The notes below the pieces were generated by a model. The model searched no databases, had not been told where the DNA came from, and was given only the letters and a program-made list of their open reading frames with translations. A stretch of DNA of 4,207 nt. It comes from Escherichia coli. GTDB lineage: Bacteria > Pseudomonadota > Gammaproteobacteria > Enterobacterales > Enterobacteriaceae. Of the stretch, positions 2,022 to 2,044 are shown one piece after another; within the stretch, counting starts at the first letter, position 1; each line of letters begins with the position of its first letter. Made by a program: the position numbers and the translations under genes. The DNA is taken from assembly GCF_003334815.1 (NCBI RefSeq), contig NZ_QOWO01000078.1; one strand, written 5' to 3'.

Positions 2022-2044
2022 CCGCCCCGTCTCCGGCGGGGCGG
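2022..2044 (-). promoter_or_regulatory. Intercistronic GC-rich stem-loop between the ParB-like gene and psiB (8-bp stem, 7-nt loop)
   Basis: Plus strand CCGCCCCG-tctccgg-CGGGGCGG, perfect 8-bp inverted repeat. It lies 12 nt after the ParB-like stop and immediately upstream of the psiB SD. No U-tract follows on the mRNA strand. Confidence 0.4.

What the first reader, a model, noticed from the sequence alone, without database searches (positions are those of the whole stretch)
2022..2044. GC-rich hairpin in the ParB-like/psiB spacer abutting the psiB ribosome-binding site
A perfect 8-bp G/C stem (CCGCCCCG/CGGGGCGG) ends 6 nt before the psiB SD (GGGAGA). It is stable enough to pause ribosomes or RNA polymerase, or to protect the upstream cistron, and could set the psiB to ParB-like expression ratio. 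It is the second element of the pair described at 4046..4070.
Basis: seen in the sequence. Interest (0 to 1): 0.3.

Follow-up and report, generated by a model that had tools for sequence, protein, structure and literature searches.

The report
Conserved GC hairpin before psiB
A small, very stable GC hairpin sits in the untranslated gap just before the plasmid anti-SOS gene psiB. It is kept in every related plasmid examined, and it is one of a series of such hairpins found almost only between the early "leading-region" genes, where it most likely protects and separates segments of the messenger RNA.

Summary
Window 2022-2029 and 2037-2044 form a perfect 8-bp all-G/C stem with a 7-nt loop, 12 nt after the tandem UGA UGA stops of the ParB-like gene (herB/yfjB) and 6 nt before the psiB SD. 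Chance expectation is about 0.007 per shuffled window. The window is the leading region of an IncI-gamma/K1 plasmid; all genes are on the minus strand, so the plus strand is the transferred template strand.

The hairpin recurs in 14 distinct ParB-to-psiB spacers, down to 37% PsiB identity. The core CCGCCC/GGGCGG is fixed and the loop varies (3-7 nt, UGCG commonest). No lineage has a U tract, so it is not a terminator. In silico it does not change psiB RBS accessibility.

It is not just one of a pair. In this plasmid type, 8 of 9 leading-region intercistronic spacers carry such a hairpin against 1 of 14 elsewhere. In F the counts are 5 of 7 against 0 of 13.

Best reading (confidence about 0.45, function inferred): a punctuation hairpin in the ssDNA-promoter-driven ssb-yfjA-herB-psiB-psiA mRNA that blocks exonucleolytic decay and insulates cistrons. 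A role tied to the single-stranded DNA stage is not excluded. No paper describing it was found.

The parts
2022..2044 (-). The GC hairpin. In the mRNA the 5' arm is 2044..2037 (CCGCCCCG), the loop 2036..2030 (CCGGAGA) and the 3' arm 2029..2022 (CGGGGCGG).
   Evidence: conserved
2045..2059 (-). Tandem in-frame stops UGA UGA of the ParB-like gene (2059..2054) followed by a 9-nt A/C-rich single-stranded run. The stem starts 12 nt after the first stop.
2000..2021 (-). psiB translation initiation region: 6-nt linker CAGCAA (2021..2016), SD GGGAGA (2015..2010), start ATG (2002..2000).
   Evidence: (annotated psiB start)
2057..4015 (-). ParB-like gene, 652 aa. It is the YfjB/HerB homologue and the upstream cistron.
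   Evidence: PMC13370423
1568..2002 (-). psiB, 144 aa. It is the downstream cistron, and it overlaps psiA (1571..852).
4046..4070 (-). Sibling intercistronic hairpin between the DUF905 (yfjA-like) gene and the ParB-like gene: UGCCGGACG-GGGAUGA-CGUCCGGCA.
   Evidence: a hairpin is kept at this position with a different sequence in L014, L031 and L037
90..126 (-). Third GC-rich hairpin (126..108, GGCCAUGC-GGG-GCAUGGCC) followed on the sense strand by UUGUGGGUUUUC. It looks like a terminator after the 209-aa ORF that ends the psiB-psiA group.

Best explanation
The hairpin is an RNA-level punctuation element of a polycistronic leading-region mRNA. In F, the homologous operon ssb-yfjA-yfjB(herB)-psiB-psiA-flmC is transcribed in the new host from the single-stranded-DNA promoter Frpo2, with the transferred strand as template.

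Proposed mechanism: the stem folds in the short untranslated gap just beyond the reach of ribosomes terminating on herB and just ahead of the psiB SD. There it would act as a barrier to 3'-to-5' exonucleases, and as a 5' cap after endonucleolytic cleavage. Decay that starts in one cistron would then not spread to its neighbour, and each ribosome-binding site would be insulated from its upstream context. The effect would be to prolong protein output from a promoter that is active only for minutes.

What is shown: the structure, its placement, its conservation, its restriction to leading-region spacers, and the absence of terminator and RBS-masking features.

What is inferred: that it acts in RNA rather than in DNA, and that its effect is on mRNA stability and insulation.
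For: 1. Real and non-random. It folds with probability about 1 in mRNA context.

2. Purifying selection. The 23 nt are invariant in 9 of 10 IncI/IncF plasmids, with one C-to-U that gives a U.G pair on the sense strand. Of 79 metagenome loci that include the whole hairpin, 76 carry it unchanged, while the linker/SD next to it has three alleles. It is present in 14 distinct spacers with PsiB identity 37-56%. The stem core is kept, the loop differs in length and sequence, and the helix grows or shrinks by complementary additions at both ends.

3. Placement is tied to translation signals: 6-12 nt after the stop (25 in one lineage) and 3-7 nt before the SD core (10 in one).

4. The loop is a C(UNCG)G tetraloop on the sense strand in 5 of the 14 spacers. 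A sibling hairpin has UGCG in F and UCCG in IncI.

5. Sibling hairpins covary. In the ssb-to-DUF905 spacer, 5 lineages are 100% paired, with 2 compensatory pairs and 1 U.G. The DUF905-to-ParB spacer keeps a hairpin with unrelated sequences.

6. The series is specific to leading operons. Counts are 8/9 vs 1/14 spacers (Fisher 1.6e-4) and 5/7 vs 0/13 in F (1.4e-3). Composition predicts 0.13 and 0.05.

7. Literature. psiB belongs to the Frpo2 operon, and leading proteins are still produced for 25-35 min after ss-to-ds conversion switches the promoter off (PMC9849209; 10.64898/2026.01.09.698686). Long-lived mRNA would fit this.
Against: - No functional data exist; nothing here measures RNA decay.
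- The strand/molecule test is inconclusive. The stem is almost purely Watson-Crick, and sense and antisense RNA energies are equal on average (-19.8 vs -19.6 kcal/mol).
- In the window/F type, the plus strand can add a T.G and a C-G pair that the sense strand cannot.
- The stem core shows no compensatory substitutions across lineages. That pattern is also what sequence-specific recognition would give.
- The restriction to leading-region operons is explained equally well by a role linked to the single-stranded DNA stage.
- F and IncI leading regions are homologous, so the two enrichment tests are not independent.
- The continued GFP signal after conversion could reflect maturation rather than mRNA life.
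Confidence: 0.45

Rival explanations
1. The function is tied to the single-stranded DNA stage. One version: the hairpin forms in the incoming T-strand (the window plus strand) and punctuates events on it, for example slowing complementary-strand synthesis or marking where transcripts can be handed over as primers. Another version: hairpins in both the RNA and the template keep the untranslated, ribosome-free gaps of the nascent mRNA from re-annealing to a template that has no competing non-template strand.
For: - The hairpin series is confined to operons known to be transcribed from ssDNA (PMC12672017).
- The plus strand is the T-strand and template (PMC9849209).
- The DNA hairpin is stable: -12.8 kcal/mol, z -3.8.
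- In the window/F type the plus strand gains two extra pairs.
- A large ssDNA stem-loop (ssp2) has been shown to stall complementary-strand synthesis, and transcripts are thought to prime it (10.64898/2026.01.09.698686).
- GC hairpins, one with a UCCG loop, also sit in leading-side spacers of the unrelated IncW plasmid R388.
Against: - The mapped stall in F was at the large ssp2 stem; the passages read mention no stalls at small hairpins.
- An 8-bp stem is a weak obstacle for a replisome.
- The tight spacing to stop codon and SD and the sense-strand UNCG loops point to RNA.
- Two variants give U.G on the sense strand but C.A on the T-strand: pMS20675C and pSLT.
- The anti-reannealing idea has no precedent that I could find.
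Confidence: 0.2
2. It tunes psiB translation. It could act as a standby or insulator structure next to the SD, or as a barrier to ribosomes sliding on from the herB stop, and so set the PsiB to HerB ratio.
For: - The distance from stem to SD is fixed and short (3-7 nt) in nearly all lineages.
- An SD-like GGAGA lies in the loop (window/F type) or just 5' of the stem (most others).
- Overlapping cistrons (psiB/psiA, psiA/orf209) have no hairpin, so hairpins occur exactly where coupling by overlap is absent.
Against: - Predicted accessibility of SD to AUG is 0.65 for the wild type, for a hairpin deletion and for either arm replaced.
- The SD is never part of the stem.
- The DUF905-to-ParB sibling sits about 20 nt from its SD.
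- Leading proteins appear synchronously in F (PMC9849209).
Confidence: 0.15
3. It is an intrinsic terminator for transcription of the plus (antisense) strand, for example of an antisense RNA covering the psiB start.
For: - The consensus scan calls a terminator-like site on the plus strand at 2020-2046, followed by TGGTTGTTCA.
- A promoter-like site lies upstream on the plus strand at 1748-1775.
Against: - Terminator-like and promoter-like counts do not exceed shuffles: 3 vs 3.4, and 2 vs 1.4.
- The T-rich tail is specific to the window/F type. Other lineages have tails such as TCTCCGTTATCA.
- The -10 hexamer CATAAT is not conserved: CATAAC in F, CATACG or CACAGC elsewhere. The hairpin is universal.
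- No plus-strand gene is present.
Confidence: 0.03
4. The inverted repeat is a DNA binding or loading site (parS-like) for the adjacent ParB-like protein HerB, or for another sequence-specific factor.
For: - The stem core CCGCCC/GGGCGG is frozen across very divergent lineages.
- It lies next to the ParB-like gene.
- HerB's loading site is unknown (PMC13370423).
- Hairpins built on CCGCC/GGCGG are concentrated in the leading region: 7 of 9 in the IncI plasmid and 6 of 8 in F.
Against: - Half-site spacing varies from 3 to 7 nt, which does not fit a dimer on duplex DNA.
- One lineage (L026) shifts the pairing register but keeps a hairpin.
- Other spacers carry unrelated stems in the same position.
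- ChIP-seq found no inverted-repeat motif for HerB on the chromosome (PMC13370423).
Confidence: 0.03

Closest known systems
Intercistronic mRNA-stabilising stem-loops (for example the REP hairpins between malE and malF in E. coli, or the puf operon hairpins of Rhodobacter). This comparison rests on established knowledge, not on a test here.
   Same: A stable G+C-rich hairpin in an untranslated gap of a polycistronic mRNA, with no U tract. It is placed where terminating ribosomes do not melt it, and it is expected to stop 3' exonucleases and uncouple the stability of neighbouring cistrons.
   Different: It is much shorter than a REP unit (23 nt), and no evidence was gathered that it is a dispersed chromosomal repeat. 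It occurs as a series in almost every gap of operons transcribed from single-stranded DNA promoters, and lies within a few nt of the next SD. No decay data exist.
Intrinsic (Rho-independent) terminators
   Same: A G+C-rich stem of 7-9 bp with a short loop. Two other leading-region hairpins (L001 4797-4817 and 15135-15153) do have U5 tails.
   Different: There is no U tract on the sense strand in any of the 14 lineages. It lies inside an operon whose downstream genes are co-expressed.
Single-stranded DNA promoters and initiation signals of leading regions (Frpo1/2, ssi1-3, ssp classes 1-3)
   Same: They share the genomic neighbourhood and the strand logic, and both rely on folding of a single strand.
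   Different: Those are stem-loops of hundreds of nucleotides that rebuild -35 and -10 boxes (PMC9849209, PMC12672017). This is 23 nt with no promoter boxes, and it lies between cistrons, not ahead of an operon.
Engineered RBS insulator hairpins (the short hairpin placed just upstream of the RBS in the RiboJ insulator). This comparison is from memory.
   Same: A short stable hairpin immediately 5' of an SD, which makes expression of a cassette independent of what lies upstream.
   Different: This one is natural and has no ribozyme. The thermodynamic model shows no gain in RBS accessibility here.

Membership tests
Intrinsic terminator (sense strand) | G+C-rich hairpin immediately followed by a run of U in the transcript | tested here: not met
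   The hairpin is present, but the tail is CAGCAAGGGAGA. No sense-strand site appears in the scan. Tails in the other 13 lineages are AUAAGGAGA, UGUAAGGAG, AUUUAAAGGAG and similar.
Intrinsic terminator (sense strand) | Lies at the end of a transcription unit | tested here: not met
   psiB and psiA follow on the same strand within 20 nt. In F, psiB expression depends on Frpo2 upstream of ssb.
Intrinsic terminator (antisense strand) | Hairpin plus T-rich tail conserved together with an upstream promoter | tested here: not met
   The tail is present only in the window/F type. The -10 hexamer is not conserved.
Intercistronic mRNA stabiliser / decay-barrier hairpin | Stable stem-loop in an untranslated gap of a polycistronic transcript | tested here: met
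   -17.6 kcal/mol, pairing probability about 1. It lies in the gap between the herB stop and the psiB SD. Operon status is from PMC9849209.
Intercistronic mRNA stabiliser / decay-barrier hairpin | Structure rather than loop or flank sequence is conserved | tested here: met
   Loops of 3-7 nt with 9 different sequences, and flanks about 50% identical, while the stem is always present. Compensatory changes occur in the sibling hairpin. However, the core of this particular stem never varies.
Intercistronic mRNA stabiliser / decay-barrier hairpin | Raises the half-life or abundance of the adjoining mRNA segment; transcript 3' ends map at its base | not testable with these tools
   No expression or end-mapping data are accessible. 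The supplements of PMC12672017 are not held.
REP/BIME elements | Member of a dispersed multi-copy family of about 35-nt imperfect palindromes with a conserved consensus | not tested
   Only 23 nt with a perfect stem. No chromosome-wide copy count was made. Rfam search of the window found nothing at this site.
Frpo/ssi single-stranded DNA promoter | Long stem-loop that reconstitutes -35 and -10 boxes in folded ssDNA | tested here: not met
   The stem is 8 bp with no promoter-like hexamers at the site. By contrast the 462-nt ardA-upstream region folds at -116 kcal/mol, z -7.2.
parS-type ParB site | Palindrome with fixed half-site spacing | tested here: not met
   Spacing is 3, 4 or 7 nt in different lineages, and the register is shifted in L026.
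Known RNA families (Rfam 15) | Match to a curated covariance model | tested here: not met
   There is only one chance-level hit in the window, elsewhere (Xist_exon4, E 0.51).

The most novel reading that the evidence does not exclude
The hairpin belongs to an undescribed, leading-region-specific system of GC punctuation hairpins, one in nearly every untranslated gap. The system would be adapted to gene expression from a single-stranded template. It might keep ribosome-free stretches of nascent mRNA from re-annealing to the T-strand, or mark sites where transcription and complementary-strand synthesis are coordinated. In this reading the recurring CCGCC/GGCGG stems and the portable stop-hairpin-SD spacer form a modular cassette boundary.
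Probability: 0.2. Interest if true: 0.75.

Novelty: new member of a known kind. Interest (0 to 1): 0.4.

Why it matters
Leading-region genes (ssb, herB, psiB, anti-restriction genes) decide whether a resistance plasmid establishes in a new host, and they are expressed in a burst of minutes from single-stranded promoters. Recent work has concentrated on the large promoter stem-loops.

A second, smaller class of conserved hairpins between the cistrons could control how long and how evenly that burst is translated, or how RNA and template are kept apart. If so, it is an unrecognised design feature of zygotic induction. It would also be a simple target for mutational tests in F and IncI plasmids, where reporter fusions and transconjugant RNA-seq already exist.

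Taken alone, the single hairpin is a modest, probably ordinary mRNA element.

Tried and rejected
- **Rfam search of the window.** Nothing at the site.
- **Sense-strand terminator.** Rejected: no U tract in any lineage.
- **Antisense terminator.** Rejected: the tail and the -10 hexamer are not conserved.
- **RBS masking or unmasking.** Rejected thermodynamically.
- **Alternative pairing of the 3' arm with GCCGCC at the end of the ParB-like ORF (repeat I4).** The conserved GCCGCCUGA is more simply explained by a conserved A-x-A-A C-terminus of the protein.
- **Integron attC-like cassette site.** Considered and dropped. The element is too short, has no core sites, and no integrase is in the leading region.
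- **Strand assignment by wobble pairs and by sense versus antisense energies.** Inconclusive.
- **MAFFT alignment of the 14 spacers.** It put the 5' arms out of register, so pair counting on the target hairpin was done by per-sequence folding instead.
- **Genome-contig scan.** Only 6 loci.
- **Viral-contig scan.** Only 1 locus.
- **Metagenome scan.** Returned 80 near-identical relatives. These were useful for showing invariance, not covariation.
- **L024 and L033.** These are bisulfite-converted assemblies and were ignored.
- **R388 as an independent test.** Only suggestive. Its transfer operon spacers are too short to act as controls.
- **Literature searches.** No description of these small hairpins was found. 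The Plasmid 2025 review is not held.

Full report
**Context**

The window matches IncI-gamma/K1, IncI1 and IncF plasmids at 80-100% identity in thousands of records. In pCFSAN004175 it lies in the leading region next to nikA/oriT. All genes are on the minus strand, in this order:
- the tail of a DUF905 (yfjA-like) gene;
- a 652-aa ParB-like gene at 4015..2057, the homologue of F YfjB, recently renamed HerB (PMC13370423);
- psiB at 2002..1568;
- psiA at 1571..852;
- a 209-aa ORF.

oriT lies to the left and the genes point towards it. The plus strand of the window is therefore the transferred T-strand and the template, as described for F (PMC9849209). In F, psiB is expressed from the single-stranded promoter Frpo2 (ssp1b) as part of ssb-yfjA-yfjB-psiB-psiA-flmC. 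The hairpin therefore lies inside a polycistronic mRNA.

**The observation**

The arms 2022-2029 and 2037-2044 are perfectly complementary, all G/C, and 7 nt apart. On the sense strand the order is: UGA UGA (tandem stops), 9 further single-stranded nt, the stem-loop, CAGCAA, SD GGGAGA, 7 nt, AUG.

The RNA hairpin is -17.6 kcal/mol and forms with probability about 1 in a 260-nt context. A perfect all-G/C stem of at least 8 bp is expected 0.007 times per shuffled window.

The three strongest GC-rich hairpins of the window (108-126, 2022-2044, 4046-4070) all fall in the roughly 9% of the window that is intergenic.

**Conservation**

- In ten IncI and IncF plasmids the 23 nt are identical. The one exception is a C-to-U that makes a U.G pair on the sense strand. 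Meanwhile a 14-nt insertion sits just upstream and the linker/SD varies.
- Of 79 metagenome loci that include the whole hairpin, 76 carry it unchanged (2 share a single inner-pair change, 1 has a one-base deletion), while the adjacent linker/SD shows three alleles.
- In one locus a deletion inside the ParB-like gene ends 6 nt before the stem and leaves it with psiB.
- More distant PsiB genes (56% to 37% identity) came from Lelliottia, Klebsiella, Enterobacter, Salmonella pSLT and metagenomes. Whenever a ParB-like gene precedes psiB, a hairpin occupies the same gap.
- Across 14 distinct spacers the stem is 6-9 bp (about 11 with one mismatch in L026) at -15 to -19 kcal/mol (about -10 for the inner 6-bp stem of L026). 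It starts 6-12 nt after the stop (25 in one) and ends 3-7 nt before the SD core (10 in one).
- The core CCGCCC/GGGCGG is constant in 13 of the 14. The loop is CCGGAGA, CCG, UGCG, UCG, UGGG, GUCA, UGCA, GCC or CCA. The helix lengthens or shortens by complementary additions at either end. L026 pairs in a shifted register.
- PsiB homologues in other contexts (after an ABC-type gene, or in a phage-like region) have no hairpin.

**What it is not**

- Not a sense-strand terminator. No lineage has a U tract, and co-expressed genes follow.
- Not a convincing antisense terminator. The T-rich tail and the only upstream promoter-like -10 are confined to the window lineage.
- Not an RBS mask. The SD is never in the stem, and predicted SD-to-AUG accessibility is 0.65 whether the hairpin is present, deleted or half-replaced.
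- Not a known RNA family.
- Not an ssDNA promoter. It is far too small and has no promoter boxes. By contrast, the region between the 209-aa ORF and ardA (its right arm is window 1 to about 80) folds as ssDNA at -116 kcal/mol, z -7.2. That fits the class-2 ssDNA promoter reported upstream of ardA (PMC12672017).
- Not parS-like. The half-site spacing varies, and no inverted-repeat motif was found for HerB.

**A series, not a pair**

In the 16-kb leading region, 21 of 29 perfect GC-rich stems of at least 7 bp are intergenic, although only 22% of the DNA is intergenic. Most same-strand gaps have the layout stop, short spacer, hairpin, short spacer, SD.

I counted same-strand spacers of 15-120 nt that contain a perfect stem of at least 7 bp and at least 70% G+C:

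| Plasmid | Leading region | Rest of plasmid | Fisher p | Expected in leading region from composition |
|---|---|---|---|---|
| IncI-gamma | 8 of 9 | 1 of 14 | 1.6e-4 | 0.13 |
| F | 5 of 7 | 0 of 13 | 1.4e-3 | 0.05 |

(Counts and Fisher tests; composition shuffles.) The F and IncI leading regions are homologous, so these two tests are one lineage seen twice.

The hairpins are nevertheless maintained individually over long divergence:
- The ssb-to-DUF905 hairpin is 100% paired in five lineages, with two compensatory pairs and one U.G.
- The DUF905-to-ParB gap holds hairpins of unrelated sequence.
- R388 (IncW) also has all-GC hairpins in leading-side gaps, one with a UCCG loop, but it offers no usable control spacers.

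Overlapping cistrons (psiB/psiA, psiA/orf209) have no hairpin.

**RNA or DNA?**

For RNA on the sense strand:
- the fixed relation to stop codon and SD;
- C(UNCG)G tetraloops on the sense strand in several lineages, and in a sibling hairpin where only the N differs between F and IncI;
- two variants that give U.G on the sense strand but C.A on the T-strand.

For DNA or the plus strand:
- the restriction to operons transcribed from ssDNA;
- two extra pairs available only on the plus strand in the window/F type.

Mean folding energies of the two strands are the same. I regard this question as open.

**Mechanism**

The best-supported reading is a decay-barrier and insulator hairpin. It lies just outside the footprint of ribosomes terminating on herB, so it stays folded. 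It can stop 3' exonucleases that enter from the psiB side, it can cap the psiB-psiA segment after an endonucleolytic cut in the A-rich spacer, and it separates the psiB RBS from an upstream 3' coding end that is highly variable.

This would suit a transcript whose promoter is extinguished within minutes by complementary-strand synthesis. It would also fit the report that leading proteins continue to be made for 25-35 min after conversion, although fluorescent-protein maturation could explain that observation too. All of this is inference; confidence is about 0.45.

The main rival (about 0.2) places the function in the single-stranded stage. It is prompted by the leading-region specificity and by the recent finding that a promoter stem-loop stalls complementary-strand synthesis. 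A translational role is given about 0.15. The antisense-terminator and protein-site readings are given a few per cent each.

**Novelty**

The sequence itself has been in F since it was first sequenced. I found no paper that mentions these small intercistronic hairpins. One preprint looked for palindromes along leading regions and saw no positional trend, but it did not separate intergenic gaps.

The single hairpin is a new member of a known kind. The leading-region-wide pattern is the more interesting by-product and deserves a proper survey.

Noticed in passing
window 2060-2071 (minus strand); L014, L017-L023, L025, L026, L031, L032: All ParB-like (HerB/YfjB-type) proteins upstream of psiB end in A-x-A-A-stop (ADAA here; AHAA, ACAA, AQAA, ASAA and ALAA elsewhere), although the preceding codons are hypervariable. 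This resembles the C-terminal LAA-type ClpXP degron of the ssrA tag and would fit a transiently needed protein. It also explains the conserved GCCGCCUGA just upstream of the hairpin.
   Followed up: partly
window 1-80 (= L001 8001-8080), with L001 7826-8000: The gap between the 209-aa ORF and ardA folds as single-stranded DNA into a long stem-loop (-116 kcal/mol, z -7.2). It probably corresponds to the class-2 ssDNA promoter reported upstream of ardA in pESBL. The window holds only its right arm.
   Followed up: partly
window 90-126; L001 15058-15075: Hairpin GGCCAUGC-GGG-GCAUGGCC followed by UUGUGGGUUUUC on the sense strand. It is terminator-like, sits after the psiB-psiA-orf209 group, and is repeated almost exactly 7 kb away in the leading region.
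   Followed up: no
F 55523-55546 and 57190-57208; pCFSAN004175 81276-81297 and 79615-79633; L017 and L021 ParB-to-psiB spacers: Different gene junctions carry near-identical CGCCGCC(C)-UNCG-(G)GGCGGCG hairpins (one with its arms inverted) with similar flanks (UGAUAACGGAGA ... UAAGGAGAC). This looks like a portable stop-hairpin-SD spacer cassette. Hairpins built on CCGCC/GGCGG are concentrated in the leading region: 7 of 9 in the IncI plasmid and 6 of 8 in F.
   Followed up: partly
window 2030-2036 (loop) and the 5' flanks of the hairpin in L014-L032: An SD-like GGAGA motif lies in the loop in the window/F type and immediately 5' of the stem in most other lineages, in addition to the real psiB SD 3' of the stem.
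   Followed up: no
L064 1440-1460: A metagenome plasmid has internal deletions in the ParB-like gene. One deletion ends 6 nt upstream of the hairpin, so the hairpin stays with psiB and the truncated frame reads through it.
   Followed up: partly
L034-L036; L027-L029: Distant PsiB homologues occur outside plasmid leading regions. One follows a glycoside hydrolase 19 (endolysin-like) gene near an antiterminator-like gene, which looks like a phage context. Another follows an ABC-ATPase gene. Neither has an upstream GC hairpin.
   Followed up: no
L024, L033: Two Logan assemblies carrying psiB are C-to-T converted throughout, apparently bisulfite libraries. The hairpin appears there as TTGTTTTG...TGGGGTGG.
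   Followed up: no
window 3615-3636: A perfect 9-bp inverted repeat CGATGACCG/CGGTCATCG with a 4-nt gap lies inside the ParB-like coding sequence. It was not examined.
   Followed up: no
L125 (R388) 20571-20621 and 22558-22590: The unrelated IncW plasmid R388 also has all-GC hairpins in leading-side intercistronic gaps: GGGCGGG-N7-CCCGCCC after ssb, and UCCCCCGC-UCCG-GCGGGGGA.
   Followed up: partly
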